DNA of 64,000 nt from an uncultured Hyphomicrobiales bacterium (GCA_964606895.1 CAZSHX010000003.1:11921-75920); one strand, 5' to 3'; counted from the first letter of the stretch, positions 5,165 through 62,376 are shown. The notes: generated from the letters alone by a model not told the origin. A program made the numbers and translations.

Positions 5165-5166
5165 TC

Positions 5167-5419: not shown

Positions 5420-5542
5420 GAATATATTTATTCCAAAAATGCAGGAAATATAAGCTCATTCAAAGTTCATACAGGTTTCAACCGATTACAAATATCCTAC
5501 TTTATGTACTGAAAATGCTTTCATGGAGGAAGATGGTTCTAA

Positions 5543-5594
5543 GAAAAAAGACTTCGAAAGTCTGACTGACAATCGAAGTCTAAATTTTTTTTTA
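5543..5594. terminator. Bidirectional rho-independent terminator, downstream of nuoB on the - strand and usable on the + strand
   Basis: Hairpin agacttcgaaagtct…cgaagtct with an A-run on one side (aagaaaaaag) and a T-run on the other (aaattttttttt). Confidence 0.6.
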
Positions 5595-5652
5595 GTTATT
5601 CTTAATCAACACCTAAACATCTTCCCAACTAAACAGCTAAGCACCTCAACAA

Positions 5653-24619: not shown

Positions 24620-24699
24620 GAGTTGAGGTTTTTAGACGGTTAGGTGTTTAGGTGGTAAAGAGTCATCCTTGTGTGTCTGCGGAGCAGACGGAGGTAGAT

Positions 24700-25535
24700 A
24701 ATCTTTCCCAAATTGCATCTTTTATTATTTCCCGAAAAAGATGCAATCAATTTTCAGCTAAACGGTTGATATTATTTCAAATAACAAAATTTTAACCATT
24801 GCATCATTGGATGCAAAATGATGCAAAGATGCAATTTTTGGATGTTTTTTCAAAGAACAGATTTGTATGTTCCGTAGGAACAACCTGTTTGTAGAAACCC
24901 AAAACATTTTAAACATCAAGCTCCGTAGGAGCGGACAGTTGAAATTATGAATTTGAATAATTAGATCGCTCCTACGGAGTTTTAATATTATATGGTCTAC
25001 TTTTCTACAAACAGTTGCTCCGCTGGAGCAATTCTCACTTCATTTTTCCCAATTTGCATTGCATCATCAAAAAATATAATTTAAAAAATGTAATTATTTA
25101 ACAGCTAACCTGTTGATATTATTTCAAATAACGATATTTTTCTCGTTGCATCTTTGGGCTAAAAAAGATGCAAAGATGCAATTTTTGGATGTTTTTTCAA
25201 AGAACACATTTGTATGTTCCATAGGAACAACCTGTTTGTAGAAACCCAAAACATTTTAAACATCAAGCTCCGTAGGAGCGGACAGTTGAAATTATGAATT
25301 TGAATAATTAGATCGCTCCTACGGAGTTTTAATATTATATGGTCTACTTTTCTACAAACAGTTGCTCCGCTGGAGCAATTCTCACTTCATTTTTCCCAAT
25401 TTGCATTGCATCATCAAAAAATATAATTTAAAAAATGTAATTATTTAACAGCTAACCTGTTGATATTATTTCAAATAACGATATTTTTCTCGTTGCATCT
25501 TTGGGCTAAAAAAGATGCAAAGATGCAAATTCTTA
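24700..25535. repeat. Tandem array of a ~346-bp structured repeat: a partial leading unit, two ~99%-identical full units (24821-25167 and 25168-25513) and a trailing stub
   Basis: Direct sequence comparison. Each unit contains multiple palindromes (gttccgtaggaac; ctccgtaggagcg…cgctcctacggag; ttgctccgctggagcaa; ggaacaacctgtttgtagaaa pairing at long range with tttctacaaacagttgctcc), plus the TTGCATCTTT…AAAGATGCAA hairpin and the GTTGATATTATTTCAAATAAC box. Confidence 0.85.
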
Positions 25536-25718
25536 CAGCCTTCTCCAAGAATAGGATGGGGTAAGGTTGACTTACTTTCAATGTACGAAATCAAAAGCAA
25601 TTAACGAAGATAACGATTATTTATTGCTATAAAATTGGAGTAATAATTTACTTCTTATTACAAGAATCGGCAGGTGGAGTTCCTGCCGATTTGGTAAATG
25701 CTGATTTTATAAACTCAT

Positions 25719-33784: not shown

Positions 33785-33890
33785 CGAGCAATTTATTTCA
33801 AATATGATGGTTGGGGGAAAAGTTGGGAATTGTGATAATGCAAAGCAGAAGTTGCATCTTTTTTACCTAAAAGATGCAAGAGATGCAATG
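33785..33890. repeat. Degenerate single copy of the hairpin-plus-box repeat core
   Basis: aatttatttcaaatatgatgg followed ~40 bp later by ttgcatcttttttacctaaaagatgcaagagatgcaa. Confidence 0.5.
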
Positions 33891-34065: not shown

Positions 34066-37000
34066 TTATGGCGTATTCACCAGATTTACTAATTTAGTTA
34101 TACTTTTTGTGCCAGCAACAAGCCTTAAAACATATACTCCGCTTGAAAGATTATTGAAATCATCAGATTCATTCAACTGAACTTTTTGGTCTCCTTTGTC
34201 AAAATAACCATTTGAGATTGTAGTAATTTCATTTCCTGCTAAATCATACAAAACCAATCGGATATATGCCGCATCAGTTAAATTGAATATAATATTTGAA
34301 TTTCGGTTTGCAGGATTTGGAATAATATCAAAATATCCGATTATACTATTAATTCCAAATAAATCATCAACACTCTTCGGTGTTTCACCTAAACCGGATA
34401 GTGCTATTGAATCCACAGACAGATTGCTTGTAATCCTTATAATGCTGTTATACTGAATACCATTAGTCGGGGAGAATCTTGCACCTATATTTGCTGTATC
34501 GCCTGGTGCAATATTGACATTTGATCTTAAAACAGAAAATGCAGGAGAAAAGGTTCTCATATTGCTTATTTTTAGAGTATCAGTACCAACATTACCAATA
34601 ATAAAAGCGGAATCTTTGGTTTTACCTGTTTCGATGGTTCCAAAATTTATTGACCTGACACTCAAAGTCATTTTAGGAACAGAAACATTAACTCCGAGTC
34701 CGGTTCCTTTTATCGTGTCGTTTGATGCATTACTGAACACCGAAAACAAACAAGACAACTGACCGTTTGATTTCGGAGAAAATGAAAGAGTTAAATTTGA
34801 CGAATCTCCGGGTAATATTGTCAGATTGGTTGTCGTGCTTGAAAATGAAGTGGAATTTGAACGAATCATTGAAATAATCAAAGTATCTTGTCCAATATTT
34901 TTTACAGGTATTAATGTATCCTTGGTTTGACCGCCTTCAACACTTCCGAAATCAACATCTTTTGAGGACAAGAGCATTTTCGGATATTTAAAATTAATAC
35001 CTTCGCCGCTGACATTAATGCTGTCAGGATATGTATTACTGGCAATTCGGAAAGTACCTTTGACAATTCCCTGGGCATTAGGGGTAAATCTTATCGCCAA
35101 GGAATAGGAAGAACCCGGAGCCACATTGAATGCCCTGATTGGAGCACTAAAAACTCCATTGGTTGAAGTAATATTGGTAACGCGTAAAGTATCTTTTCCA
35201 GTGTTATTGACTTTAATACTTGAATCTTTGGAAGTGCCTTGGGAAACCTGACCAAAATCTAAAACTTTAGAACTTAGAGTCATAACAGGAAGTTTGATGG
35301 GTGCGGCATTCAATTTGAAAGCTCCTCTGGCACAATATGCATACATTGAATTACCATTCCCCATTAGTCCTCTGACTGCAACGCTGTCCAATCCGGCATA
35401 CTTCCATGTTGTACCCAAATCATCCGAAACATAAACACCCCAACTTGTTCCGTTGTAGTAAACAGGGGTGAAGTTGACATAAAGAGCACCTGTAGAATCA
35501 AAAGCCAATGTAGCTATATCCGTTGATGAAAAAGGAGGTAATGGTATACTTTTCCATGAATTTTCTGTAATATCCTGTGAATATAAGGAAGAAACACCAA
35601 GTTTATTTATCAATGAACCTGCGAACATTTTTCCTTTTGAGTTTACCGTGAAAGTATTTATAAGTGCATCACCCAAACCTGAAGTATCCGGAACCCAATT
35701 CCCGCCAACAAATTGATTTTTTTTGAAAACAGCTGGCTGCAGAATTTGTTGTCCGGTATAGGAGAATGTACTAAAAAATAAATTTGATTTGGCATCAGAG
35801 CCAAAATTAGCTAATACTTTAAATTGGTTAGTTCCTGCGGCTGTTAAGTTTGCTCCGGTAGTATCAGGATTCCATTCAGCAAAAGGAGTTCTTGAATATA
35901 TTCTTATCGGGTTAGTACCCGAAGAAGTCAAACCAAAATGCTGATTTGAGAATTCATCCACGAAAAATGCCGTAGCAAAGAACCCGGTGGAAACAGGTAC
36001 AATTGAAATACCCAAAGTATCATAATTCCAAGTAACTCCCGCATCGGTACTCTTCAGCACATTTGCCTGATGAGTCTGTCCGGTTCCTGAAGCAGTTTCC
36101 TGCATAAATAAATTGCCGAACATATCCCTTTTGATGATTTTACCACTTAAAAACCCGGTTTGGGGATACCTCTTTATCCAGTCACTTGTTGAACTTGACT
36201 GCGAATAGACACCAAAACCGGTACTTACAACTGCTTTCTCATTTCCAAGAAAGTGGAGGCTGTAAATATTTTCGGACATAATTCCAGCATAAGCAGGCGA
36301 ACAATTATCACCTGAAGTTAAACTTGAATAAACGCAATAGTTAGTTGCGGCTTCAAGGGTTGAATCTCCCCGGACATCATTATAAACGAGAGTTGTACCA
36401 ACTGAATTACGCAAATTTGTATCTATTCTAATCCATGCGGGTTCAGAGGTTTTTTTGCGATATAAAGTTGTGGATTGATTTCCACCCATAGCATATTTTG
36501 TTCCATAGCTGTCATCCCCGAAACGAGTTACACTGAAGTTGCCAAATCCGGTTGTATCTCGGCTCCATGTTGTCCCATTATCAATTGAAAGAAATGGACC
36601 CTTTGTGCTTGTTGCCACATAAAGTCCGGAGTTGTTGCGACAGTTGAAGATTGTTAAGCAGTTTAAAGTTGAATCGAATGAATTTACTTTTGTCCATTGG
36701 CTTGAAGTATCAATAATACTATAAACTCCTTTTGAAGTAGCGGCAATTACAGTATTATTATTCAAAAAGCATATATCGGAAACCGTAATATTTTTCAAAC
36801 CCAAGGTATCGGCAAACCAACCGTTGTTATCCTTGCGGTTGACCCAAACTCTGCTGTTATTCAGAAGGAATGCGAAATTTGAACTGATTAATTTTTTGGG
36901 GCGGATAGATGTTGTCCCAGGACCAGGAAAAATTTTTGTAGTTTCGAAAGTTTGATTCAAAGGATTGAATGTGAAGTATAAGGTTGTTGCATTATCAAGA

Positions 37001-37368
37001 AGAACCCACAGAGTACGCTTTTTCCCTGTTTCACCATATTGAAAGTTCATATCAGTAATGGTTCTGCCCGGATCGGTCTGATACAAAAATTTGCTTTTGG
37101 ACCATCCGATGTTATCCCAATTTTTTGAGGAATAGATAGAAGTATTTGTGCAGACAATACGATACTGAATTCCATCAACAGTAGCAATTGAGAGCCTTCT
37201 GGTTTGCTCGCCGTCTGCCGTTGGGAATCTTTGAGAATATAAGTTAGTAGCAATAAATAGTAACATGCAAACAATTACTATTCGAGAAAAAAATGTATAA
37301 AGTTTTCGCATATCCTTAGCTCCTGATAAATAAAAATAAAAAGTCAACTTTGTTTTACAAATAAACAA
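34066..37368 (-). CDS. Large secreted T9SS cargo protein: N-terminal beta-propeller-like region, four choice-of-anchor-D/ASH-like Ig repeats, C-terminal T9SS sorting domain
   Basis: Four repeats of LDFG.V..G.SKD..I.V.N.G.DTL.V.NI motifs. C-terminal Por tail (…GVYVLRLVAGTKSITKLVNLV). The likely start is the internal Met at ~37311, followed by a signal peptide. Confidence 0.7.
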   Translation of the reverse strand: MFICKTKLTFYFYLSGAKDMRKLYTFFSRIVIVCMLLFIATNLYSQRFPTADGEQTRRLSIATVDGIQYRIVCTNTSIYSSKNWDNIGWSKSKFLYQTDPGRTITDMNFQYGETGKKRTLWVLLDNATTLYFTFNPLNQTFETTKIFPGPGTTSIRPKKLISSNFAFLLNNSRVWVNRKDNNGWFADTLGLKNITVSDICFLNNNTVIAATSKGVYSIIDTSSQWTKVNSFDSTLNCLTIFNCRNNSGLYVATSTKGPFLSIDNGTTWSRDTTGFGNFSVTRFGDDSYGTKYAMGGNQSTTLYRKKTSEPAWIRIDTNLRNSVGTTLVYNDVRGDSTLEAATNYCVYSSLTSGDNCSPAYAGIMSENIYSLHFLGNEKAVVSTGFGVYSQSSSTSDWIKRYPQTGFLSGKIIKRDMFGNLFMQETASGTGQTHQANVLKSTDAGVTWNYDTLGISIVPVSTGFFATAFFVDEFSNQHFGLTSSGTNPIRIYSRTPFAEWNPDTTGANLTAAGTNQFKVLANFGSDAKSNLFFSTFSYTGQQILQPAVFKKNQFVGGNWVPDTSGLGDALINTFTVNSKGKMFAGSLINKLGVSSLYSQDITENSWKSIPLPPFSSTDIATLAFDSTGALYVNFTPVYYNGTSWGVYVSDDLGTTWKYAGLDSVAVRGLMGNGNSMYAYCARGAFKLNAAPIKLPVMTLSSKVLDFGQVSQGTSKDSSIKVNNTGKDTLRVTNITSTNGVFSAPIRAFNVAPGSSYSLAIRFTPNAQGIVKGTFRIASNTYPDSINVSGEGINFKYPKMLLSSKDVDFGSVEGGQTKDTLIPVKNIGQDTLIISMIRSNSTSFSSTTTNLTILPGDSSNLTLSFSPKSNGQLSCLFSVFSNASNDTIKGTGLGVNVSVPKMTLSVRSINFGTIETGKTKDSAFIIGNVGTDTLKISNMRTFSPAFSVLRSNVNIAPGDTANIGARFSPTNGIQYNSIIRITSNLSVDSIALSGLGETPKSVDDLFGINSIIGYFDIIPNPANRNSNIIFNLTDAAYIRLVLYDLAGNEITTISNGYFDKGDQKVQLNESDDFNNLSSGVYVLRLVAGTKSITKLVNLVNTP

Positions 37369-37637: not shown

Positions 37638-38351
37638 CTAATAGCCTGTAGATAAAGACAAAAACTGAAAAACAAGCAAAAATTCCGATAATTTCAGAAA
37701 AACACGTTTTGTGAAAAAGAAATAAAATATGAGGCTGAAATTGTCTAATAATCGAATTTGAAAACGCCAAATGCAGTTGAGAATCCAAGATAAGAAGAAA
37801 TTTGAGTTGGCAAGGGACTGTTTAGGTGTTCCAATGCCGAATAACTTTCTCATAAGAAGAGAAAGGTTGTAGCTCGCCACAGCGATTCTATATCGCTTCA
37901 GTATGTTTTCGTTTTTGCTAAGAGTGGTTCTTTGCTGACCGCCTGAGTCAAGTACTTGAGCAAAACTTCGCTCAACCTGCGATCCGCGTAGTCCCAGAAG
38001 TGCCTTACCTTCCTTGCTTTTTACTTCGGCTTTTGCGAAACGCAGTGGTATTCTTTCTTCAATAGTAAGCTTTTCCAGATTACGATTGTAAATGAAGTCG
38101 GGAATTACTGTCATAACGTCCATATCATGAATTGCTTGAATCTCAGTCGCTTTAAAATATCCTTTGTCCGATGTAACTGTCTGAATCTGTAAAACAGTTG
38201 TAGGGTCTTCAGCTATGTCGTTAAGTCTGATCTGGGCATTAATAATACGTTCGGAAAGCTCGCTTGAATCGGCTTGATTACAGTGAAGCATGTTTACTTC
38301 TATTATTGCACCTGTGACAGGGGCAACATTAAGGTCAAATTTTGAGTTCAT
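37638..38351 (-). CDS. DDE transposase (IS4/IS5 type; short, possibly catalytic core only)
   Basis: DxGY motif (TSDKGYF) and R-x3-E-x6-K-like C1 region (RGSQVERSFAQV). The ORF runs into the terminal IR. Confidence 0.65.
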   Translation of the reverse strand: MNSKFDLNVAPVTGAIIEVNMLHCNQADSSELSERIINAQIRLNDIAEDPTTVLQIQTVTSDKGYFKATEIQAIHDMDVMTVIPDFIYNRNLEKLTIEERIPLRFAKAEVKSKEGKALLGLRGSQVERSFAQVLDSGGQQRTTLSKNENILKRYRIAVASYNLSLLMRKLFGIGTPKQSLANSNFFLSWILNCIWRFQIRLLDNFSLIFYFFFTKRVFLKLSEFLLVFQFLSLSTGY

Positions 38352-38491
38352 GAGTGGGAATCCACATTGATGTTTGTTTTGGTATCTTTTTCTTCTTAAT
38401 CATTATGATCTTCGATATTTGTTATATATTTTATACCATTAAGACTTAAATCGTGTTTATTGTTGTATTGATTAATCAACAGGCTCTTAAA
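37638..38491 (-). mobile_element. IS element, 854 bp, IS4/IS5-superfamily (IS1031-group-like size), copy 1
   Basis: 100% identical to 55188..56041. Imperfect terminal IRs TAATAGCCTGTAGAT / TAAGAGCCTGTTGAT. Both copies are flanked by TAA (TNA-type target duplication, or the element termini). Single transposase ORF. Confidence 0.75.
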
Positions 38492-45661: not shown

Positions 45662-48600
45662 ATGAAGACTCGTTTTTTAAAAAGTTTTGTTCCTCAAACT
45701 GCATTGATTTTAATAGCAGTATTTTTAGTGAATTTCAGCAATGGATTGTCTCAGGCGTGGATAAAACCTGTGGATGCTGAAAAACCTTTTTCATTTCCTG
45801 AAGCTCAGCAAAAATTCAATGAATATTGGAAAGATAAAAAACCTGCCAAAGGTTCGGGTTGGAAAGTTTTCAAAAGACTCGAATGGTTTTGGGAGCAAAG
45901 GTTGTACCCTTACAACGAAATGCCCGATGCAAACAGAATTTATAAGGACTGGAATAATTATCTTGAAAATAAAAAGTCAAGTGATAAAATGAATTCCAAA
46001 GCAGACTGGAAATTTTTAGGACCTACACAAAAACCCCAAACGAAACCGGGTGAAATTCCTCCTGGCATTGGTAGAATCAACTGTGTGGCTTTCGATCCTT
46101 CGAATCCCAATATTCTTTGGGCAGGAGCCGCTTTTGCCGGAGTTTGGAAATCAACAAACGGCGGTTCAACATGGACAACATTTCCACAAACAGATTTTAT
46201 GGCTGTTGGAGTTTCGGATATTGGAGTAGCACCCTCAGCACCAAATACCATTTATGTTGCAACCGGAGATGCTGAATCCGGAGGATTTTTCGGACAAAAT
46301 TTCTCATTCAGTATAGGAATATTGAAATCTACCGATGGTGGAGCATCTTGGAAGCAAACAGGATTACAGGCTCCACAATCAAATACGTTGCTAATCAATA
46401 GACTGCTTGTTCATCCTACCGACCCAAATACAGTTTATATGGGTTCCAATGCAGGTGTTTATAAAACTGTTGACGGTGGTACTAACTGGACTCAGATAAG
46501 TGCAGAAATTTGCCGCGATTTGGAATTCAAACCTACCGACCCGACAATCCTTTACGCCTCAATTATCAATAGTGGTGTATATTCAATTAGAAAATATACA
46601 GTAGCATCAGGTCAATGGTCAAGACAACTTGAATTTGCCCAAAATGAAGTTGCAAGAATTGCATTAACTACTTCAAAAGGGAATGCTTCCTATGTTTATG
46701 CTGTTGTTGCAGGAGCAGATATGGGATTCCATTCATTCTGGAAAACTACAAACGAAGGCACAACTTGGACAAAAATTTCAGATAAATCCAAAACACCTAA
46801 TTTATTGTCATTCGAATTCGATGGCAGTACAGCAGGAGGGCAAGGGATGTACGATCTGGCTTTGACTGCGGATCCTGTTGACCCAAAAACAGTTTATGTC
46901 GGTGGAGTGAATATTTGGAAATCAACCGACGGAGGTAGTAAATGGAATTTATTAGCTGATTGGACAGGTTATTACGCTCCATGGGTTCATGCTGACCATC
47001 ATTATCTCGATTTTTCACCAAATGGAACATTGTTCTCGGCGAATGACGGAGGTTTGCAAAAATCTTCAAATTACGGAACCAACTGGACAGATATTAGTAA
47101 TGGTTTAGCCGTAATGCAATTCTATCGTTTAGCAACATCGAAAACTGATGCCGACTTCATTATTGCAGGTGCTCAGGACAATGGAACAAACAAATTAAAC
47201 GGTGGTGTTTGGCAAAATATTCAGGGCGGCGACGGAATGGAGTGCTTGATTGATTATTCAGATGCTAAATATATTTATGCCTCTCTTTATTATGGAGAAT
47301 TAACCCGATCAGTGGATGGCGGTAATACTTTCACTCAAATGTTTGACCCAAAAAAAGTCAATGAACAAGGCGGATGGGTAACACCGATGATTATGCATCC
47401 CTCAGATCCTAAAATACTTTTTGCAGGATTACACAATATTTGGAAAACAACCGATAGAGGAGTTAATTGGGGACCAATTTCAAATTTTGCCGGAAACGGT
47501 AATTTCAGAGCTCTTACAATTGCACCTTCAAATCCGAATTATATATATGCGGCGGCTTATAACCAATTAGTTCAATCAACTAATGGGGGAACAAGCTGGA
47601 ATATTACTTACACTGCTGAAGTTCAAATCAGTTATATTGTTGTTGATCCCACCAAACCCGACAGAATTTGGTTAGCACTATCAGGTTTTAAGGACGGGTC
47701 AAAAGTGCTTAAAATTGATAATGGAACATTGACCAATGTCTCAGGAACCCTTCCAAATGTTCCGGTAAATTGTATAGTTTACCAGAATAATTCGGTAGAA
47801 AGACTTTATATCGGGACTGATATTGGAGTGTTTACCCGCGATAAAAGTTCAAAAGATTGGGAGTTATTCAATGATGGATTACCGCCTGTAGTAATTAATG
47901 AACTTGAAATTCATTATGGTGGGCAAAAGCTCAGAGCCGCAACTTATGCAAGAGGATTGTGGGAGACTAAACTTTCAGACTGTGATATTCAAACTCCTGA
48001 TATTGTTGTGACAGGTAAAACAAATATTTGCAAAGGTGATTCTACCATTTTAGAATGTTCAGGTGATTTTGCATCTTACAAATGGTCGAGCGGACAATCA
48101 TCAAAAAAAATTACAGTTAAAACTGCCGGTTCATTCAGTTGCCTTGTGACTGATGCCAAGAAATGCGAAGCTACTTCTATCCTTGTAACAATTACAGTGA
48201 ATGACCCACCCGATATTACGATCAAAGCACTTTCCAAACATCCGTTCTGCGAAGGGGACAGTGTTCAGCTAAGCGGACCCGGGTTGCAGTATTCCACAGT
48301 CAATTGGTCAAACGGTGAAACAGTAAGGAAAATTTGGGTGAAGAAACCCGGTCCATTAACGGTTACAGGTCTGACGTCATCAGGTTGTTCGAAAGTATCT
48401 CCTACATTTGTTGTTGAGATGCTTCCGAAACCATCAAAACCAATCATAACTAAATCGGGAGAAGAACTGATTTCGAGTGATGCACTATCGTATCAGTGGT
48501 TTTTTAATGGAGATTCAATTCCCGGAGCAAATAAGAAGAATCTGATGCCTGCAAAATCAGGAAAATATAAAGTTGAAACAGGTGATAATAAGGATTGCAA

Positions 48601-48907
48601 AAACACATCTGATGAATTTGCTTATGGAACAGATGCAGTTGAGCAAAATGTAAATAGCCAATTTATACGAATTATGCCAAATCCCTCGAAAGACTTTTTC
48701 AATCTCGAAATAAATGGTGAATTTCAAGGGGATGTTACTCTATCAGTAACGAATTTACTTGGAATCGAATTGTTCTCTGCTAAGGAAGTATATGCCGGAA
48801 ATTCATTTTTCAAACAGCTTGATTTGTCAAAATTTCCAACAGGAGTCTATTTTGTCAAAATTGGATTGAATACAGGCATAATTATAAAAACTATAACAAA
48901 AGATTAA
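45662..48907 (+). CDS. BNR/Sortilin (GH74-like) double beta-propeller protein with Ig-like domains and a T9SS C-terminal sorting domain (paralog 1)
   Basis: At least 9 x (K/R)(S/T)xDGGxxW repeats. Three Cys-containing Ig-like modules. C-terminal Por tail (IRIMPNPSKDFFNLEI…GVYFVKIGLNTG). Signal peptide. Confidence 0.7.
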   Translation: MKTRFLKSFVPQTALILIAVFLVNFSNGLSQAWIKPVDAEKPFSFPEAQQKFNEYWKDKKPAKGSGWKVFKRLEWFWEQRLYPYNEMPDANRIYKDWNNYLENKKSSDKMNSKADWKFLGPTQKPQTKPGEIPPGIGRINCVAFDPSNPNILWAGAAFAGVWKSTNGGSTWTTFPQTDFMAVGVSDIGVAPSAPNTIYVATGDAESGGFFGQNFSFSIGILKSTDGGASWKQTGLQAPQSNTLLINRLLVHPTDPNTVYMGSNAGVYKTVDGGTNWTQISAEICRDLEFKPTDPTILYASIINSGVYSIRKYTVASGQWSRQLEFAQNEVARIALTTSKGNASYVYAVVAGADMGFHSFWKTTNEGTTWTKISDKSKTPNLLSFEFDGSTAGGQGMYDLALTADPVDPKTVYVGGVNIWKSTDGGSKWNLLADWTGYYAPWVHADHHYLDFSPNGTLFSANDGGLQKSSNYGTNWTDISNGLAVMQFYRLATSKTDADFIIAGAQDNGTNKLNGGVWQNIQGGDGMECLIDYSDAKYIYASLYYGELTRSVDGGNTFTQMFDPKKVNEQGGWVTPMIMHPSDPKILFAGLHNIWKTTDRGVNWGPISNFAGNGNFRALTIAPSNPNYIYAAAYNQLVQSTNGGTSWNITYTAEVQISYIVVDPTKPDRIWLALSGFKDGSKVLKIDNGTLTNVSGTLPNVPVNCIVYQNNSVERLYIGTDIGVFTRDKSSKDWELFNDGLPPVVINELEIHYGGQKLRAATYARGLWETKLSDCDIQTPDIVVTGKTNICKGDSTILECSGDFASYKWSSGQSSKKITVKTAGSFSCLVTDAKKCEATSILVTITVNDPPDITIKALSKHPFCEGDSVQLSGPGLQYSTVNWSNGETVRKIWVKKPGPLTVTGLTSSGCSKVSPTFVVEMLPKPSKPIITKSGEELISSDALSYQWFFNGDSIPGANKKNLMPAKSGKYKVETGDNKDCKNTSDEFAYGTDAVEQNVNSQFIRIMPNPSKDFFNLEINGEFQGDVTLSVTNLLGIELFSAKEVYAGNSFFKQLDLSKFPTGVYFVKIGLNTGIIIKTITKD

Positions 48908-48911
48908 AATA

Positions 48912-51900
48912 ATGTTATTAAAATTAAAATCACAAAGAATTAAAATGAAAAAAGTGTTAAATATCGTTACGATTGTTTTGTGTGTGCTTTTTGCAGGTTA
49001 TACTGCAGATTCACAAACTCAGTTACAGAATTTGGCAAAACAAAGCAATCCAAAATTTGAAGATGTCCGTAATGCTTCAGAAGCAATTTGGAAAGACATT
49101 CCTGTTGACCAAAGAAAAGGTTGGAAACAGTTTAAAAGATGGGAATATTTTTGGCAGAGCAGATTGAATCCTGATGGGACTTTCCCAAATTCAAATCAAT
49201 TGATGAATTCAATAAAATCAGTTCAGGTTCAAAATCAGAAATCAAGTGATAAAATGCAGGGTAATGTTCCTCAATGGAAATCACTCGGACCAAAAGTTAA
49301 TCCAAACAGCGGTTCAACAGAACTTGGCATTGGCAGACTAAATGTTATCAGATTCAACCCTGTAAATTCCAAAATAATTTGGGCAGGTTCTGCCGGCGGA
49401 GGATTATGGCGGTCTTTAAACGGCGGTAAAAATTGGGAGACTTTTGCGTTCACCCAATTTCTTTCATTAGGTGTATCGGATATTGCAATATCTATGTCAA
49501 ATCCAAGCACAATTTATGTTGCAACCGGTGATGCTGACGGTATTGGCGGCGGTGGGGGTAATTCTTATAGTATTGGTGTTATTAAATCTATTGATAATGG
49601 TTTAACCTGGGAGGTCACAAATCTGAATTATGGATTTGCTAATCAAAAGTTAGTTTCTCGACTGCTTGTTGATCCTAAGAACTCCAATATCCTTTTAGCC
49701 GCTACAATCGAAGGTATTTTCAAAACTACTGATGGGGGAGCAAGTTGGGCAAGAAAATCGGATAATATTTATTTCAAAGATATGGAATTCAAACCCGATG
49801 ACCCGAACGTAATTTATTCTGTAACAAATGGTTGGTCCGGAACATGCACAATTTTTAAATCTGTTGATATGGGAGAAACCTGGAAACAAGGTTATTCAGT
49901 CTCCGGAACGTCAAGAATTGCCCTGGCTGTAACTTCGGCAAATTCAAATAATGTTTATGCAGTATGTGCCGCATCAAATAGTTCCTTTCATTCCTTTTTG
50001 AAATCAGATGACGAAGGTGAAACATGGACTAATCTATATGACAATAACAAAGGAGTTAATCTTTTGGGTAGGGAAGATGGTACAGGTAATGACCGGTATG
50101 TTGGACAAGGCTGGTATGACCTTTGTTTAGCCATTTCGCCTTTTGACGAAAATGAAATATTTGTTGGTGGTGTCAATATCTGGAAATCAACAACCGGAGG
50201 TTCAAGTTGGACATTAAATGCTCATTGGTATGGCGGGCAGGGTGGAAAACCTTATGTCCATGCAGACCAGCATGACCTTATTTATGATGAAAATGATGGA
50301 TATTTATATTCCGCAAATGATGGAGGAATTGACCGGACAATGGACGGAGGAGTGAAATGGACTAATTTTAATAATGGCATGAATATTACTCAATATTATA
50401 GAATTGCCTGTTCGGCGCAAGACTCAAATGTTATTTATGGCGGTGCTCAGGATAATGGTTCCCATAGATATGAAAAGGGTACATGGACGAAGGTTTATGG
50501 CGGTGATGGGATGAACTGTGAGGTTGATTGGGTTGACCCATTGACCGCTTATGTTTCACTTTACAACGGAGCATTGTACCGGACTACAAATGGCTTTTCT
50601 TTTTCAAAAATGGACATTACCTCTGAAGGTGGGGCATGGGTAACTCCATTTATTATAAGTCCAATAAATCATTTTGTTCTATATGCCGGATTTAAAAATG
50701 TATGGAAATCTGAAGACGGCGGAAGGAAATGGAGTAAACTTTATTCTTTGAATAATAACACGACTCTTCGCTCCCTTGCGGCGGCTCCATCTGATTCAAA
50801 TACAATTTATGCCGCTACTTACAATACTTTATGGGTAACTTATGATGGCGGTAAATCATGGACTACAATTCCTAACGTACCGGAAAGTATATCATCAATT
50901 GCTGTTGACCCGAAAAACGCAAAGAGGTTCTGGCTTACTAATGATGGTTTTAATGACAAAAATAAAGTATTTGAATATAATGGAGATACGAAAACGAATA
51001 TTTCAGGAAATCTCCCAAATTTACCGGTTAATTGCGTTACTTATCAAAAAGATTCTCCAGACAGACTCTATATTGGAACCGACATTGGAGTTTATTATAG
51101 TGATTATGGTTCCGCTAACTGGGAACCTTTTGGCGAGGGATTGCCAAATTTGATTGTTAATGATATTGAAATTCATTATGGTTCAAGCAAATTACTAATT
51201 GCTACTTACGGTAGAGGTGTTTGGGAAACTAATATTATCAATTGTAATCTTTCGGAACCACAGGTAAAAACAATCGGGAAGACTGTCTTTTGCTGGGGGG
51301 ATTCTGTAATCCTTGAATCTGTAGGCGATTATCAGGATCTTTACTGGTCAACGGGAGAAAAAACTAAAAGAATTACTGTTAAAGAATCAGGTGATTATAA
51401 TATTACAATTGTTGACCCATCAGGTTGCAAAGCCAGTTCAAAGGCAATTATTGTTGATGTTAAATCTGCTTCTCCTATTCAAATTAAGCCAATTGGTAAA
51501 TTTCCTGTTTGTGAAGGCGATGTTATCAGTCTTGAACTGAATGTACCTATGGGATTCAATAAATATCTTTGGTCAACCGGAGATACTATAAGGAGAATAA
51601 AAATAACCCAACCCGGAAAATATAATGTTACTGCAACTACGTCAGATGGATGTTTTTCAACTGACAGCTTTGAAATTATTATATATCCAAGACCTGAAAA
51701 GCCTAATATTATAAGATACTGGTATAAACTTCTCAAGGCTTCTGATGCCTTGTCATTCCAATGGTATCTGGATGGAAAAATCATTTCCGGTGCAACAGAT
51801 CAGATTCTTGAAATTGATAAGCTTGGGGACTATACTGTTCAGATTTCCGATAAAAATGGTTGTACAAACACTTCGGAATTGTATAATGTTATTTCAGGTG

Positions 51901-52169
51901 TTGAAGAAAATTCAATTATAGGAGAAAATGTTTATATTTACCCAAATCCAAATGACGGAAATTTTGATTTAACAATCAAATCTGACAAAATGGATAATTA
52001 CAAAGTTTCTATTCAGAATATTTTGGGTTTAACCATTCAGGAATTGTCATTTAGTATTGATAAAAAATGGTCGGGACAGATTGATTTAACCAAATATTCT
52101 GCCGGAGTTTACAATGTTATTATAAAAAATTCTTTTGAAACTAAAGTTTTAAAGGTTATTAAAAACTAA
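48912..52169 (+). CDS. BNR/Sortilin (GH74-like) double beta-propeller protein with Ig-like domains and a T9SS C-terminal sorting domain (paralog 2)
   Basis: Same architecture as the upstream gene and collinear with it. Gap of 4 nt. The likely start is the Met at 48945 (MKKVLNIV). Confidence 0.7.
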   Translation: MLLKLKSQRIKMKKVLNIVTIVLCVLFAGYTADSQTQLQNLAKQSNPKFEDVRNASEAIWKDIPVDQRKGWKQFKRWEYFWQSRLNPDGTFPNSNQLMNSIKSVQVQNQKSSDKMQGNVPQWKSLGPKVNPNSGSTELGIGRLNVIRFNPVNSKIIWAGSAGGGLWRSLNGGKNWETFAFTQFLSLGVSDIAISMSNPSTIYVATGDADGIGGGGGNSYSIGVIKSIDNGLTWEVTNLNYGFANQKLVSRLLVDPKNSNILLAATIEGIFKTTDGGASWARKSDNIYFKDMEFKPDDPNVIYSVTNGWSGTCTIFKSVDMGETWKQGYSVSGTSRIALAVTSANSNNVYAVCAASNSSFHSFLKSDDEGETWTNLYDNNKGVNLLGREDGTGNDRYVGQGWYDLCLAISPFDENEIFVGGVNIWKSTTGGSSWTLNAHWYGGQGGKPYVHADQHDLIYDENDGYLYSANDGGIDRTMDGGVKWTNFNNGMNITQYYRIACSAQDSNVIYGGAQDNGSHRYEKGTWTKVYGGDGMNCEVDWVDPLTAYVSLYNGALYRTTNGFSFSKMDITSEGGAWVTPFIISPINHFVLYAGFKNVWKSEDGGRKWSKLYSLNNNTTLRSLAAAPSDSNTIYAATYNTLWVTYDGGKSWTTIPNVPESISSIAVDPKNAKRFWLTNDGFNDKNKVFEYNGDTKTNISGNLPNLPVNCVTYQKDSPDRLYIGTDIGVYYSDYGSANWEPFGEGLPNLIVNDIEIHYGSSKLLIATYGRGVWETNIINCNLSEPQVKTIGKTVFCWGDSVILESVGDYQDLYWSTGEKTKRITVKESGDYNITIVDPSGCKASSKAIIVDVKSASPIQIKPIGKFPVCEGDVISLELNVPMGFNKYLWSTGDTIRRIKITQPGKYNVTATTSDGCFSTDSFEIIIYPRPEKPNIIRYWYKLLKASDALSFQWYLDGKIISGATDQILEIDKLGDYTVQISDKNGCTNTSELYNVISGVEENSIIGENVYIYPNPNDGNFDLTIKSDKMDNYKVSIQNILGLTIQELSFSIDKKWSGQIDLTKYSAGVYNVIIKNSFETKVLKVIKN

Positions 52170-55187: not shown

Positions 55188-55901
55188 CTAATAGCCTGTA
55201 GATAAAGACAAAAACTGAAAAACAAGCAAAAATTCCGATAATTTCAGAAAAACACGTTTTGTGAAAAAGAAATAAAATATGAGGCTGAAATTGTCTAATA
55301 ATCGAATTTGAAAACGCCAAATGCAGTTGAGAATCCAAGATAAGAAGAAATTTGAGTTGGCAAGGGACTGTTTAGGTGTTCCAATGCCGAATAACTTTCT
55401 CATAAGAAGAGAAAGGTTGTAGCTCGCCACAGCGATTCTATATCGCTTCAGTATGTTTTCGTTTTTGCTAAGAGTGGTTCTTTGCTGACCGCCTGAGTCA
55501 AGTACTTGAGCAAAACTTCGCTCAACCTGCGATCCGCGTAGTCCCAGAAGTGCCTTACCTTCCTTGCTTTTTACTTCGGCTTTTGCGAAACGCAGTGGTA
55601 TTCTTTCTTCAATAGTAAGCTTTTCCAGATTACGATTGTAAATGAAGTCGGGAATTACTGTCATAACGTCCATATCATGAATTGCTTGAATCTCAGTCGC
55701 TTTAAAATATCCTTTGTCCGATGTAACTGTCTGAATCTGTAAAACAGTTGTAGGGTCTTCAGCTATGTCGTTAAGTCTGATCTGGGCATTAATAATACGT
55801 TCGGAAAGCTCGCTTGAATCGGCTTGATTACAGTGAAGCATGTTTACTTCTATTATTGCACCTGTGACAGGGGCAACATTAAGGTCAAATTTTGAGTTCA
55901 T
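55188..55901 (-). CDS. DDE transposase (identical to the one at 37638..38351)
   Basis: Identical 237-aa ORF. Confidence 0.65.
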   Translation of the reverse strand: MNSKFDLNVAPVTGAIIEVNMLHCNQADSSELSERIINAQIRLNDIAEDPTTVLQIQTVTSDKGYFKATEIQAIHDMDVMTVIPDFIYNRNLEKLTIEERIPLRFAKAEVKSKEGKALLGLRGSQVERSFAQVLDSGGQQRTTLSKNENILKRYRIAVASYNLSLLMRKLFGIGTPKQSLANSNFFLSWILNCIWRFQIRLLDNFSLIFYFFFTKRVFLKLSEFLLVFQFLSLSTGY

Positions 55902-56041
55902 GAGTGGGAATCCACATTGATGTTTGTTTTGGTATCTTTTTCTTCTTAATCATTATGATCTTCGATATTTGTTATATATTTTATACCATTAAGACTTAAA
56001 TCGTGTTTATTGTTGTATTGATTAATCAACAGGCTCTTAAT
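55188..56041 (-). mobile_element. IS element copy 2 (identical to 37638..38491, same orientation)
   Basis: 854/854 identity by direct comparison. Inserted 9 bp after the stop of the - strand gene ending at 56050. Confidence 0.75.
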
Positions 56042-57357: not shown

Positions 57358-57453
57358 TTACATATATATTTTTAAGATTTTAAAGACGCAATGAAATAAA
57401 TTTATTTGAAATAATAATATAAACATCAGAATCGTCAATGTATTTTTGCATTA

Positions 57454-58197: not shown

Positions 58198-58485
58198 TAT
58201 TGTATATCTTTCTTCTTTTTCCGTTCCGTTAGTTTTTAAAGTTGACTTCTAAACTATTCATTTTTTCAATACAATTCCCAAATTGCATCTTTTTGTTTTT
58301 TTTCAAAAAAGCTACAATGTCATTTCGATTCATAACTCATTCGGGTATTATTTTCATCGGGTTAGAACATCAGTTCCAATGACCTTTTTTAATTCCCTGC
58401 CATGACCAATCTTCTTCTTCATTAACAGAATTAGATATTGTTGAAAAAAAATATGTATTTTTGTACTTATTTTTTGAACTGAATT

Positions 58486-60314: not shown

Positions 60315-60800
60315 ATGAAAAGCAAAAAATTTCAAATTGTAACCCTACTTTTAATAATGACATCAATCATGTTGTTTCTTCTTTATGATAATCATATTAA
60401 GTCAAAAAGAATTGAAAAACTAACTCAGCAAGTAAAGATTCTACAGCCAAAATATACTGCAAAGGATACAACAGAACTATTGAATTTGGTATTATATGTT
60501 AAAGAGTTTGAGGCAAATTCAAAATTATTAGATTCAACAAAACGAATATTAATTTCCACATATCCATTCTTCACCAGAGATTACTCTCTGACTAAATTTG
60601 GGAAAAAAGTAGAATTTTATTATAATCCAACAATGACACCGTGGCTTGATAATGAGTTTGTGTTTGATGAATTCAAACTATATCAAAATGATTCTGCTTA
60701 CATTTATTTTAAATTTAGTGAATATAGGTGTGGGTGTTTCTCCTTTAAAATTGATCATGGGAAATGGGTCGTTAAGGATTATGAGTTTGGTCGAAAATAA
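60315..60800 (+). CDS. Hypothetical membrane-anchored protein
   Basis: 161-aa ORF with an N-terminal TM/signal segment, immediately downstream of the kinase. Confidence 0.4.
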   Translation: MKSKKFQIVTLLLIMTSIMLFLLYDNHIKSKRIEKLTQQVKILQPKYTAKDTTELLNLVLYVKEFEANSKLLDSTKRILISTYPFFTRDYSLTKFGKKVEFYYNPTMTPWLDNEFVFDEFKLYQNDSAYIYFKFSEYRCGCFSFKIDHGKWVVKDYEFGRK

Positions 60801-61184
60801 AGTAATGAAGATATACAAAGAAAAGGCTTGAAAAAATTCTCAAACATATTATCTACAATCTCCTGGCTGATAAAGCATGGTTGATACCTCCATTTCGTCA
60901 GCAGTTACTATCAGTTTGTGATGCTCCGGGTTCTATACCGCCATTGGACAGCACCGAACAACAACCACAGTTTCGGCTACAACGGCATGGAAAAGGACGA
61001 CAAAGTGATTGGGCTGGGGAAATTGATTCAGGCATAATCGGATTAAAATGATGAATCATGAAAAGAAGTTGAATATTACCTCTTTTCCATAGCAATAATT
61101 AATCATGCTTTTCGTTTATATTTTGTGAGTTCTCGTTCTTTGACAGTTTGTCAACCTCACCCCGACATTCATGGAGAAGAGGTA

Positions 61185-61600
61185 AAAATTGCATCTTTGC
61201 ATCTTTTTCAGCACAAAGATGCAATTGACAAAAAGTCGTTATTTGAAATAATATCAATAGGTTAGATAATAATTGCATTGCATGTTTTTTTGAAAAAAAA
61301 TAAAAGTGCAAAGATGCAATGAAGGAAATCCGATTTCGCGTAGCGATTGAATATAGAACGAACATTTGCCGTCGTATTTATATTTAACCCCTGACGGGGT
61401 TAAGGATTTTTTTGGGTTCTATGTGTTACAGATATTCATTCCCTACGGGAATCGGAAGAATGAAAAACAACCATAAATTGCATCTTTTTGCATTCAAAGA
61501 TGCAATGGCTCAAAACTCGTTATTTGAAATAATATCAATAGGTTATGCGGTTTACTTACTGCATTTTCTTAAGTAAAAAAAAGATGCAATTTGGGGAAAA
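61185..61600. repeat. Two diverged units (~290 bp apart, 61190 and 61480) of the hairpin-plus-box structured repeat family, inside a ~1.07-kb gene-free region
   Basis: ttgcatctttgcatctttttcagcacaaagatgcaattgacaaaaagtcgttatttgaaataatatcaataggttag and ttgcatctttttgcattcaaagatgcaatggctcaaaactcgttatttgaaataatatcaataggttatg. Intervening palindromes aacccctgacggggtt and attccctacgggaat. Confidence 0.8.
61385..61414 (+). terminator. Strong terminator-like hairpin inside the repeat region
   Basis: ttaacccctgacggggttaa followed by ggattttttt. Confidence 0.5.
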
Positions 61601-61869
61601 TGAAGAAAAAAGAAGTGGTTAGACGCGTGTTTAATCAAGATTTAAAAATCCAACGCTTATACGATTTTCAATTCTAAATTCACAATTTCTCCTCTTTACC
61701 CTCTCCCTCGTCCTTCAGCCCTTGTGCGATAATAAGTTGAGATGTTTAGTTTCTTAGGCGTTTAGATGTTGAATGAATAAATAAATCTCCCAAAATTGAT
61801 TTTAGAATCAGCCAATCTATTAATCCAAAAAAAAAATTTCCAAAAATAAATATTTTTTTGGAAATTTAA

Positions 61870-62376
61870 TTGTTTTTTCATAATTTAGTTGTATATGCAA
61901 CTGTTGTATTACCAACTAATATTATTATGGACGAATTTCAAAATATGGATAAATCAATAGGCTTCCATCTGGGGCATACTTTCAGAATGGTTAAGTCTGT
62001 TATGAACAAAGTATTTCAGGAAAATGGTTACAATATCACTTCAGACCAATGGCAGATTCTGATGTGTCTTTGGGGCAAGGACGGCAAAACTCAGCAGGAA
62101 GTAACTCAATTTGTAACAAAAGAAAAAGCTACAGTAACAAGATTGATTGACGGGCTTGAAAAAAGGAATCTTTTCATTCGCGTTCAGGACAAAACCGACC
62201 GCAGAAAAAATCTGCTCTATCTGACCGACGAAGCTAAACAATTGAAAGACAAGCTGATGCCTATCGCTACAAAAACTTTGGATATTGCCGTTAAAGGATT
62301 TGAGGAATCCGAAATCGAAATGCTTAAATCATTGCTTATTCGTGTTCAGGAAAATCTAAAAGTTTTTGAAAAATAA
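61870..62376 (+). CDS. MarR family transcriptional regulator
   Basis: Winged-HTH MarR pattern (LTSDQWQILMCLW…QQEVTQFVTKEKATVTRLIDGLEKRNLFIRVQDKTDRRKNLLYLTDE). The likely start is the Met at ~61927. Confidence 0.8.
   Translation: MFFHNLVVYATVVLPTNIIMDEFQNMDKSIGFHLGHTFRMVKSVMNKVFQENGYNITSDQWQILMCLWGKDGKTQQEVTQFVTKEKATVTRLIDGLEKRNLFIRVQDKTDRRKNLLYLTDEAKQLKDKLMPIATKTLDIAVKGFEESEIEMLKSLLIRVQENLKVFEK

What the first reader, a model, noticed from the sequence alone, without database searches (positions are those of the whole stretch)
60801..61869. 1.07-kb gene-free region upstream of marR–tolC–MFP holds a second, diverged pair of the same structured repeat, with compensatory changes in its palindromes
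This window is otherwise gene-dense, yet this stretch has no credible ORF. It contains two units about 290 bp apart, each carrying the same conserved core as the 24.7-kb array. Between the cores the sequence has diverged, but it again forms palindromes built on the same scaffold: aacccctgacggggtt and attccctacgggaat here, against gctccgtaggagc, gttccgtaggaac and ctcctacggag in the other array. The stems differ (ttccc/gggaa, gttcc/ggaac, gctcc/ggagc) while the pairing is kept. That pattern is what selection on secondary structure (RNA or DNA cruciform) produces, not conservation of a protein-binding sequence. The aacccctgacggggttaaggattttttt hairpin looks like a + strand intrinsic terminator, so a transcript may end about 460 bp upstream of marR. 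The position suggests possible cis-regulation of the MarR efflux locus.
Basis: partly seen in the sequence, partly recalled or inferred. Interest (0 to 1): 0.72.

Follow-up and report, generated by a model that had tools for sequence, protein, structure and literature searches.

The report
Dispersed hairpin–core–hairpin intergenic repeat
The long spacer upstream of marR holds two copies of a non-coding, palindrome-rich repeat, specific to this lineage, that also occurs in four other spacers of the window; it most resembles the REP/BIME or MITE repeats of other bacteria and does not look like a regulator of the efflux genes.

Summary
Positions 60801-61926 contain no credible gene. They carry two repeat units (61186-61474 and 61475-~61700) homologous to the three tandem units at 24.7-25.5 kb. 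Each unit starts with a 120-145-bp module:
- a 28-bp palindrome (TTGCATCTTT-N8-AAAGATGCAA);
- 13 nt of linker;
- an invariant core, GTTATTTGAAATAATATCAA;
- a second palindrome with the same arms.

A fast-diverging tail follows, carrying mini-palindromes with C-GTA-G or C-TAC-G triloops. A solo palindrome (33852) and two decayed modules (58.3 kb, 57.4 kb) lie in other spacers. Part of the "empty" DNA (60888-61028) is a relic of an Rhs core domain.

The module arms are conserved in sequence, with one compensatory pair among 19. The tails cannot be aligned significantly, and any two palindromes compared will show "double changes", so covariation is not shown. Regulation of marR is not supported. 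marR has its own conserved operator next to its start codon. Orthologous marR loci have 110-255-bp spacers without modules. The other array lies between convergent genes.

Best reading: a BIME/MITE-like mosaic repeat in an uncultured Ignavibacteria-like genome. It is a new member of a known kind and of modest interest.

The parts
60888..61028 (+). Relic (44-46 codons) of an RHS repeat-associated core domain. It is truncated about 30 nt before the repeat begins and is not part of the repeat itself.
   Evidence: phmmer against 1.84 billion representatives gives 9 hits with E <= 1e-3. The best, P0130, is 61% identical over 44 aa. P0130, P0137 and P0138 carry TIGR03696 at the aligned residues. tblastn limits the homology to 60888-61028 (92).
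61055..61185 (+). 'Leader' of the repeat block, homologous to the sequence in front of the first unit of the other array
   Evidence: 61063-61179 matches 25656-25540 at 72% identity, E 4e-12; alignment
61186..61326 (+). Module B1: extra half-site 61189-61195, palindrome H1 61197-61224, core 61238-61264, palindrome H2 61272-61320
   Evidence: nhmmer E 4e-34; motif coordinates; consensus fold
61327..61474 (+). Tail of unit B1 with three mini-palindromes: tcgcGTAgcga 61336-61346, ttaaccccTGACggggttaa 61384-61403, attcccTACgggaat 61438-61452. It also contains a 22-codon ORF, 61319-61387, that is not conserved.
   Evidence: the ORF frame is not conserved between copies
61383..61413 (+). Intrinsic-terminator-like hairpin with a T7 tail
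   Evidence: Terminator scan: 9 pairs, loop TGAC, tail GATTTTTTTG. The region has 3 such sites against 0.5 expected.
61475..61607 (+). Module B2: H1 61478-61505, core 61519-61545, H2 61559-61590, then TTGGGGAAAATGAAG
   Evidence: nhmmer E 4e-32; a 15-nt perfect inverted repeat at 61475-61489 / 61578-61592; coordinates
61608..61790 (+). Decayed tail of unit B2. It is weakly similar to the P2-P3 spacer of the other array, and its mini-palindromes are lost. It contains a 25-codon ORF, 61600-61677.
   Evidence: local alignment z 2.0, with 12 of 300 shuffles as good; alignment
61887..61902 (.). marR-proximal palindromic box AGTTGTATATGCAACT. It is not part of the repeat and is the likely MarR autoregulatory site. 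An A/T palindrome lies just upstream at 61837-61864.
   Evidence: The box is conserved as GTTGCGTATGCAAC or GTTGCAAATACAAC at the same distance before marR orthologues L139-L142.
24697..25665 (-). Sister array: leader 25532-25665; units A1 (module 25382-25531), A2 (25035-25184) and A3 (24697-24837). A1 and A2 form a 347-bp tandem repeat with 4 differences. The array lies between convergent ligA and a BNR/T9SS gene.
33852..33879 (-). Solo copy of palindrome H1 (TTGCATCTTT-N8-AAAGATGCAA) with an extra upstream half-site, in a convergent spacer 3' of a T9SS gene
   Evidence: nhmmer E 1e-3 (67)
58276..58352 (-). Decayed module: second half of the core, H2 and TTTGGGAA
   Evidence: local alignment z 6-7 against B1, B2 and A3; nhmmer E 0.014, model positions 62-133 (67)
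57382..57416 (+). Decayed module fragment in a divergent promoter spacer: right arm of H1 (AAAGACGCAAT) plus a core-like TTATTTGAAATAATAA
   Evidence: alignment z 3.6-5.3 (66); nhmmer E 0.11 (67). This is the weakest of the relics.

Best explanation
The spacer is filled by a non-coding mosaic repeat specific to this lineage, of the same general kind as enterobacterial BIMEs (REP - IHF-site linker - REP) and Correia-type MITEs.

Shown:
- A 120-145-bp module recurs five times at two loci, and three relics lie in other spacers. All are intergenic and they occur in both orientations.
- The module is two palindromes with identical 10-bp arms around an invariant 20-nt A/T-rich core. The outermost arms form a 13-19-bp terminal inverted repeat.
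- Units are amplified in tandem.
- The DNA between modules evolves fast but stays studded with small G+C-rich palindromes followed by T-rich runs, on both strands.

Inferred:
- The arms and core stay constant in sequence because proteins recognise them. Candidates are a transposase or recombinase acting in trans on the hairpin or TIR ends, and an IHF/HU-type bending protein on the core. The core matches WATCAANNNNTTR in all five copies, and only the N positions vary.
- Copies spread by transposition-like insertion and then by unequal recombination or gene conversion.
- The mini-palindromes are a second, REP-like component. Their palindromy is kept by hairpin-level constraint or by templated quasi-palindrome correction.
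- For the host they act mainly as terminators or insulators at gene ends.
- In this spacer the block sits next to a truncated Rhs fragment and upstream of marR's own conserved promoter-operator.
For: - Five strong module hits and three intergenic relics in 64 kb.
- H1 is a 28-bp palindrome with a fixed 8-bp spacer at six sites.
- The core 20-mer is identical in all five copies, while the adjacent 13-nt linker differs at about half its positions.
- The IHF consensus is kept in all five copies and in the strain variant L134 (CAGG to CAAG).
- TIR-like arms of 13-19 nt (3).
- A1 and A2 are nearly identical 347-bp tandem units.
- The strain variant shows a mosaic block of about 25% divergence flanked by identical sequence. 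The P1 stem is kept and its loop is changed, which suggests exchange with other copies (36-39).
- Metagenome contigs of the same organism break at module edges, at 61210 and 61545 (49).
- Terminator-like sites: 8 against 0.4 expected in array A, and 3 against 0.5 expected in B, on both strands.
- All 7 C-GTA-G / C-TAC-G hairpins of the window lie in the arrays.
- No Rfam family matches, and there is no tRNA or conserved ORF (7-10, 27, 28, 51, 52).
- marR orthologues have short upstream spacers without modules (72-77).
- Rhs-relic homology stops about 30 nt before the repeat (92).
- Published descriptions of BIMEs list an IHF-binding L linker, tandem copies that are well conserved within a locus, and REP types that differ yet retain complementarity (PMC3333891). 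Correia elements have TIRs, an IHF site and divergent promoters (PMC2229807).
Against: - Copy number outside the window is unknown. The core 20-mer gave only chance hits in 185,579 species genomes. The hairpin-plus-core pattern gave none in JGI metagenomes or viral contigs.
- No transposase, RAYT or recombinase gene is in the window.
- There are no clear target-site duplications, TA termini or empty-site comparison.
- The REP hallmark, a GTAG head at the foot of the stem, is absent.
- The IHF match was noticed after the fact. The consensus occurs about 10 times per window by chance, so the chance of one falling in a given 29-nt core is about 0.003 (31). Whether this phylum has an IHF with that specificity is unknown.
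- The conserved TTGGGAAAAATGAAG beyond the right arm, and the conserved leader, show that the copies at the two loci also arose by segmental duplication.
Confidence: 0.5

Rival explanations
1. Tandem cassettes for small RNAs or small proteins. The core is an extended -10 promoter, H1 and H2 are operators of one repressor, and each unit gives a short transcript that ends at a tail hairpin. This would resemble tandem sRNA paralogues or the long-direct-repeat type I toxin-antitoxin loci of E. coli.
For: - The core reads TGAAATAAT on the unit strand and TGATATTAT on the other strand.
- In B1 it lies 16 nt after a perfect TTGACA (11 of 12 matches, with TG).
- Core-like 16-mers occur in three other promoter-bearing spacers (8 matches against 0.6 expected, of which 5 are the modules).
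- In B1 an ATG preceded by the conserved H2 opens a 22-codon ORF whose stop codon abuts a canonical terminator.
- Sequence, not just pairing, is conserved in the arms and core.
- The tandem layout plus a second locus resembles sRNA or type I TA repeats (this comparison is from my own knowledge).
Against: - Promoter-like sites are not enriched: 5 against 5.7 expected, and 7 against 5.5 expected.
- Only B1 has a good -35.
- ORF frames and lengths are not conserved. A1 and A2 stop at codon 3, A3 has no ATG, and B1 uses a different frame (my reading).
- The peptides have no family match.
- The putative transcribed part is the least conserved part.
- Relics in other spacers look like decay.
- Folding shows no strand preference.
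Confidence: 0.25
2. One reading: the block is a cis-regulatory region of the marR-tolC-MFP operon, acting as a remote operator, an attenuator or a long structured 5' leader.
For: - The units point towards marR, and B2 has no terminator between it and marR.
- The arms contain TTGC/GCAA, as does the marR box.
Against: - The conserved MarR box is GTTGY-N4-GCAAC, with adjacent arms. That architecture is not found in the modules.
- Four orthologous marR loci have 110-255-bp upstream spacers with the box and no module (72-77).
- The same repeat fills a spacer between convergent genes and leaves relics elsewhere.
- A terminator-like hairpin lies inside the block.
Confidence: 0.07
3. Site-specific recombination or inversion switches. 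Inverted repeats flank a short segment carrying an IHF site and a promoter-like core, as in the E. coli fim switch, so the segment would flip orientation.
For: - Inverted repeats of 13-19 bp flank about 90 bp that hold an IHF consensus and -10-like hexamers on both strands.
- A second set of 13-14-nt inverted repeats exists in the tails (P2/P3 in array A, P2'/P4' in B1).
Against: - No recombinase gene is in the window.
- All five metagenome assemblies show region B in one orientation with 100% identity.
- The strain variant of array A is diverged, not inverted.
- The segments are much shorter than known invertons (from my own knowledge).
Confidence: 0.05

Closest known systems
E. coli BIME-1 / RIB (RIP) elements: REP - L linker with IHF site - inverted REP
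   Same: - Extragenic, often at the 3' ends of convergent transcription units.
- Two palindromes flank a well-conserved linker carrying an IHF consensus.
- Mosaic of several motif types.
- Tandem amplification, with copies at one locus nearly identical.
- Palindrome types differ in sequence yet retain complementarity (PMC3333891).
   Different: - No sequence similarity.
- The palindromes here are perfect, A/T-rich, and have an 8-nt loop.
- No GTAG or CGTC head at the stem foot.
- No RAYT gene seen.
- Copy number unknown.
- The host belongs to the FCB group (Ignavibacteria/Kapaibacteria-like), not Proteobacteria.
Correia / NEMIS miniature inverted-repeat elements of Neisseria
   Same: - A 105-155-bp non-coding unit.
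- Terminal inverted repeats.
- A central IHF-binding site.
- Putative divergent promoters inside the element.
- Transcripts fold into long hairpins (PMC2229807).
   Different: - No TA termini or target-site duplication can be shown here.
- Each end is itself a hairpin, because an inverted copy of the arm lies just inside it.
- Conserved sequence extends beyond the right arm.
- Copies occur in tandem with a long variable tail.
Tandem sRNA paralogues and long-direct-repeat type I toxin-antitoxin loci (e.g. E. coli ldrABC + ldrD) - recalled from my own knowledge, not tested
   Same: Units of 300-500 bp repeated in tandem in one spacer, with a further copy or copies at a second locus. Each unit has promoter-like, short-ORF and terminator-like features.
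   Different: The short ORFs here are not conserved in frame, are basic rather than hydrophobic, and are interrupted in most copies. No antisense partner is evident.

Membership tests
REP / BIME | 20-40-nt (imperfect) palindromes in extragenic DNA | tested here: met
   H1 is a 28-bp palindrome at six intergenic sites. Mini-palindromes of 11-20 nt occur only in the arrays.
REP / BIME | Conserved GTAG (or CGTC) tetranucleotide at the foot of the stem | tested here: not met
   H1 is preceded by A-runs (AAATTGCATC). In the mini-palindromes GTAG spans the loop and stem (ccGTAGg) and is not at the stem foot (definition from PMC3333891).
REP / BIME | Pairs in inverse orientation separated by conserved linkers; an IHF site in the long linker (BIME-1) | tested here: inconclusive
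   Two palindromes flank a conserved core that matches WATCAANNNNTTR in 5 of 5 copies. The palindromes are symmetric, so orientation is undefined, and binding was not tested.
REP / BIME | High copy number (typically over 100 per genome) and an associated RAYT (TnpA-REP) gene | not testable with these tools
   Only 64 kb of this genome is readable. No HUH or transposase gene is in the window. Collection scans found no other copies.
MITE (Correia-like) | Non-coding unit under 200 bp with terminal inverted repeats | tested here: met
   Modules of 118-145 bp; arms 61188-61206 / 61302-61320 (19 nt, 89% complementary) and 61475-61489 / 61578-61592 (15 nt, 100%).
MITE (Correia-like) | Target-site duplication or TA termini; filled versus empty sites | tested here: inconclusive
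   Flanks show only A-rich similarity (AAAAACAT.. / AAAAATGAAG), and the right flank is itself conserved between copies. marR orthologues lack the block, but their MarR proteins are only 45-69% identical, too distant to count as empty sites (71-77).
MITE (Correia-like) | Dispersed copies at unrelated loci | tested here: inconclusive
   Five loci in the window, but only two hold intact modules, and those two also share flanking 'leader' homology.
Any Rfam RNA family | Covariance-model score at or above the gathering threshold | tested here: not met
   0 hits at gathering score in the whole window. At E <= 10 there are only chance-level matches far below threshold.
   Module: 2 pairs of 19 with a double change; 40 of 500 shuffles do as well. 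Tails cannot be aligned (z 0.4). z is about -6 on both strands. There are only 5 distinct sequences.
Intrinsic terminator | G+C-rich stem-loop followed directly by a T-run | tested here: met
   61383-61404 plus GATTTTTTTG, 9 pairs. Function was not tested.
MarR operator | The palindrome conserved in front of marR orthologues (GTTGY-N4-GCAAC) | tested here: not met
   Present at 61887-61902 next to marR and in L139-L142. In the modules the inverted arms are 8 nt or more apart and the sequence differs.

The most novel reading that the evidence does not exclude
The hairpin-core-hairpin module could be a previously undescribed functional unit of this uncultured Ignavibacteria-like lineage. It might be a regulated bidirectional promoter cassette giving a family of short structured RNAs, or a new hairpin-ended mobile element that uses an IHF/HU-type host factor. 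In either case the satellite mini-palindromes would be kept by genuine selection on hairpin formation.
Probability: 0.2. Interest if true: 0.5.

Novelty: new member of a known kind. Interest (0 to 1): 0.3.

Why it matters
The finding would add a BIME/MITE-like repeat family to a phylum-level group (Ignavibacteria/Kapaibacteria-like FCB bacteria) known almost only from metagenomes. It explains why assemblies of this organism break at these spacers. It also stops the 1.1-kb spacer from being read as a regulatory region of the marR-tolC efflux operon. If the core really binds an IHF/HU-type protein, it would be an independent origin of the palindrome - bend site - palindrome design seen in enterobacterial RIB elements and in Correia elements. 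The practical value is modest.

Tried and rejected
- **Rfam.** Nothing at gathering score for the whole window, and nothing meaningful at E <= 10 for either array. No tRNA or tmRNA.
- **Coding potential.** No frame is conserved, and the short ORFs have no Pfam or NCBIfam hit. A chimeric query of all spurious ORFs against 5.8 billion proteins found nothing.
- **More copies elsewhere.** The 20-mer core in 185,579 species genomes gave 9 chance hits inside genes. Hairpin plus core gave 0 hits in viral contigs and JGI metagenomes. The hairpin alone gave more than 120 loci, all generic hairpins without the core. Plasmid and phage BLAST found no match.
- **Closest relatives.** The best non-self LigA hit is only 69% identical, and MarR relatives are 45-69% identical, so orthologous non-coding comparison is impossible.
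- **Known regulator sites.**
  - The LexA boxes of Bacteroidetes are GGA-N5-TCC and CTAA-N5-TTAG, which do not match (PMC8565304).
  - The FNR/CRP spacing is off by one base; the sigma-54, Fur, Rex and CIRCE consensus sequences do not fit (read by eye against consensus sequences recalled from memory).
  - The Bacteroidetes-type -7 box TAnnTTTG is absent from the modules.
- **MarR binding to the modules.** Rejected because the box conserved among orthologues has a different architecture.
- **Inversion.** No alternative orientation appears in five assemblies.
- **The Rhs idea.** My first guess that 60.9-61.0 kb is Rhs-like failed a direct HMM scan. It was then confirmed through its homologues (87-92).

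Full report
**What is at the coordinates.** The DNA between the 161-aa ORF (60315-60800) and marR has no credible gene. marR has a MarR domain, and its likely start is ATG 61927. The longest ORFs in the spacer are 88, 65, 56 and 54 aa. None is kept in frame in the homologous copies, none has a Pfam or NCBIfam match, and gene callers placed nothing there on an identical metagenome contig (L010).

61197-61264 and 61478-61545 are 85% identical and 281 bp apart. Their 29-nt core recurs at 25106 and 25453 on the minus strand, with zero matches expected by chance. A third, more diverged copy lies at 24759-24785. The quoted palindromes and the terminator-like hairpin 61383-61413 are present.

**Anatomy.** Aligning the five units gives a conserved module of 120-145 bp:
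- an extra half-site TTGCATC;
- a 28-bp palindrome H1, TTGCATCTTT-N8-AAAGATGCAA, with a fixed 8-bp spacer at all sites;
- a 13-nt variable linker;
- an invariant GTTATTTGAAATAATATCAA, followed by nnGKTTA;
- about 20 variable nt;
- a second palindrome H2 built from the same arms;
- then TTGGGAAAAATGAAG.

The outermost arms form a 13-19-nt inverted repeat around the module. A tail of 100-200 bp follows and differs strongly between loci. It carries small G+C-rich palindromes about 50 nt apart, most with a GTA or TAC triloop closed by C-G. Such hairpins (stem of 4 bp or more) occur seven times in the window, and all seven lie in the two arrays; 0.68 are expected per 64 kb. In front of the first unit, both loci share a leader of about 120 nt (72% identity, E 4e-12).

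Units A1 and A2 form a 347-bp tandem repeat with four differences. The units fold much better than shuffled sequence (z about -6), but equally well on both strands. That is what palindromic DNA does, and it gives no information about a transcribed strand.

**Distribution.** A profile of the module finds the five intact copies (E 1e-32 to 1e-37). It also finds a solo H1 at 33852-33879 (E 1e-3), a decayed half-module at 58276-58352 on the minus strand (E 0.014; pairwise z 6-7), and a weaker fragment at 57382-57416 (E 0.11). All are intergenic and they occur in both orientations.

The large array lies between convergent ligA and a BNR/T9SS gene, so nothing lies downstream for it to regulate. No Rfam family matches.

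The organism is a deep-branching member of the FCB group. Its LigA is at most 69% identical to anything else, and the named hits are Ignavibacteria, Kapaibacteria or Bacteroidota MAGs. The same genome appears only as short contigs in three ENA assemblies and two Logan runs. Region B is 100% identical in all of them. Contigs end at 60909-60984, 61210 and 61545, which are repeat edges.

Searches for further copies found nothing informative:
- species genomes gave only chance hits;
- viral contigs and JGI metagenomes gave no hairpin-plus-core match;
- the hairpin alone gave generic hairpins without the core;
- plasmids and phages gave no match.

The genome-wide copy number is therefore unknown.

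**A strain variant.** In assembly ERZ4201038, the array between ligA and the BNR gene differs from the window by a block of about 25% divergence. The block runs from just after the core to the second mini-palindrome, appears in both A1 and A2, and is flanked by identical sequence. Inside it:
- the first mini-palindrome keeps its 7-bp stem and changes only its loop (AGC to GGA);
- the core's only change falls on an N position of the IHF-type consensus;
- H2 is better paired than in the window.

A mosaic block like this suggests exchange with other copies. Collapse of tandem copies in a 5x short-read assembly is a caveat.

**Covariation.** In the module, 11 of 19 predicted pairs never vary. Only two pairs have a change on both sides; the one in H1 is in A3 (TTGCATCATT / AATGATGCAA). 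40 of 500 shuffles reach the same count. The arms are therefore conserved as sequence, which points to recognition by a protein more than to structure alone.

In the tails, B1 cannot be aligned to the other array better than shuffled sequence (z 0.4). B2 is marginal (z 2.0). Anchored on their loops, the three palindromes of B1 and their presumed counterparts show 7 identical pairs, 8 pairs changed on both sides and none changed on one side. Any two perfect palindromes must give that pattern, so it proves palindromy, not covariation.

Positional homology rests on four weaker points: the same order, the roughly 50-nt spacing, the same succession of loop orientations (GTA, then T(G)AC, then TAC), and two short anchors (GCGAT after the first palindrome, TTTTGGGTTyCTA after the second). 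Keeping palindromes while sequence drifts can come from selection on hairpins. It can also come from templated correction of quasi-palindromes; that alternative comes from established knowledge of mutational mechanisms and was not tested here.

**marR.** A palindrome, AGTTGTATATGCAACT, lies at 61887-61902, 25-40 nt before the start codon. The same box lies at the same place before marR orthologues whose proteins are 69%, 58% and 45% identical (GTTGCGTATGCAAC or GTTGCAAATACAAC). Their upstream spacers are only 110-255 bp and hold no module. marR autoregulation therefore has its own conserved proximal site, and the 0.9 kb of extra DNA is a lineage-specific addition. The module arms share only TTGC/GCAA with this box and have a different architecture.

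**The rest of the 'empty' DNA.** 60888-61028 encodes, in one frame, 44-46 residues that are 52-61% identical to the start of the RHS repeat-associated core domain. The matching proteins are 370-440 aa long, and their aligned segment is TIGR03696. The homology stops about 30 nt before the repeat leader, and the rest of the domain is absent from the window. The spacer is thus a patchwork of a truncated Rhs fragment, the repeat block, and marR's promoter-operator.

**What it most likely is (confidence about 0.5).** It is most likely a mosaic intergenic repeat of the REP/BIME or MITE kind. The design of palindrome, conserved linker with an IHF-type consensus, then palindrome is that of E. coli BIME-1/RIB elements. 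Published descriptions of those also list tandem amplification with near-identical copies within a locus, location at the 3' ends of transcription units, and palindrome types that differ yet stay complementary (PMC3333891). A unit of about 120-150 bp with terminal inverted repeats, a central IHF site and divergent promoter-like hexamers is also the description of Correia elements (PMC2229807).

The IHF match (WATCAANNNNTTR in 5 of 5 copies, with variation only at N) was noticed after the fact. The consensus occurs about 10 times per window by chance, so a hit within a given 29-nt core has a probability of roughly 0.003. Binding is not tested.

The many hairpins followed by T-rich runs on both strands suggest a host-level role as terminators or insulators: 8 terminator-like sites against 0.4 expected in array A, and 3 against 0.5 expected in B.

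Membership in REP proper fails on the GTAG head. Membership in MITEs is open, because no target duplication or empty site can be shown. No transposase, RAYT or recombinase gene lies in the window.

**Main rival (about 0.25).** Each module could be a regulated promoter for a short RNA or peptide.
- For: the core reads as an extended -10 on both strands. B1 has a perfect TTGACA 16 nt upstream. Core-like 16-mers occur in three other promoter-bearing spacers. B1 has a 22-codon ORF ending at the terminator.
- Against: promoter-like sites are not enriched. The ORFs are not conserved. The would-be transcribed part is the least conserved. Decayed relics lie elsewhere.

Regulation of marR (about 0.07) and an inversion switch (about 0.05) are less likely, for the reasons given above.

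**Verdict.** The feature is a new member of a known kind of bacterial repeat in a poorly known lineage. Interest is modest (0.3). The decisive step is a census in the full genome and raw reads, followed by transcript mapping.

Noticed in passing
window 60888-61028 (+): Truncated relic of an RHS repeat-associated core domain (..FGYNGMEKDDKVIGLG..), 52-61% identical to the TIGR03696 segment of 370-440-aa proteins. No rhs gene is nearby. Metagenome contigs of this organism break at 60909-60984, which suggests further copies in the genome.
   Followed up: yes
window 37638-38490 and 55188-56040: A perfect 853-bp duplicate containing a 237-aa ORF with no Pfam match plus 139 nt upstream. One ENA assembly holds it as an 853-bp contig at about twice the local coverage, consistent with two copies per genome.
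   Followed up: partly
window 61887-61902; L139, L140, L141, L142 upstream of marR: A conserved palindromic box, GTTGY-N4-GCAAC, 25-40 nt before the start codon of marR and of its orthologues (45-69% identical proteins). It is the probable MarR autoregulatory operator.
   Followed up: yes
L134 3453-4560 (strain variant of window 24620-25718): A block of about 150 bp in both tandem units is about 25% diverged from the window, while the flanks are identical. This looks like mosaic exchange or gene conversion, though collapse of tandem copies during assembly cannot be excluded.
   Followed up: partly
window 5164-5227 / 5369-5432; 24640-24690; 5590-5652: Another convergent spacer holds a 64-nt direct repeat (87% identical). 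G/T-rich TTAGGTG-type runs follow the stop codon of ligA and the stop codon of the gene ending at 5653. This may be a separate small repeat family.
   Followed up: no
L028 4862-4921, L129 267-322, L082 11010-11073: Metagenome contigs with very different G+C content (0.36 to 0.59) share a long perfect intergenic palindrome, GGYGYCAGGC-TTGCATCTTTGCATCTT...AAGATGCAAAGATGCAA-GCCTGRCRCC. It contains the same TTGCATCTTTGCATC doublet as the left arm of H1. Unexplained.
   Followed up: no
window 4757-4979 vs 17663-17885: Two Fib_succ_major-domain proteins (4235-5164 and 17487-18974) are paralogues, about 70% identical at the DNA level over 223 nt.
   Followed up: no
window 25719-28004, 34066-37368, 45662-52169: Four large BNR/Sortilin- or Ig-like proteins have T9SS C-terminal sorting domains. 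Array A and the solo palindrome each lie just 3' of one of them.
   Followed up: no
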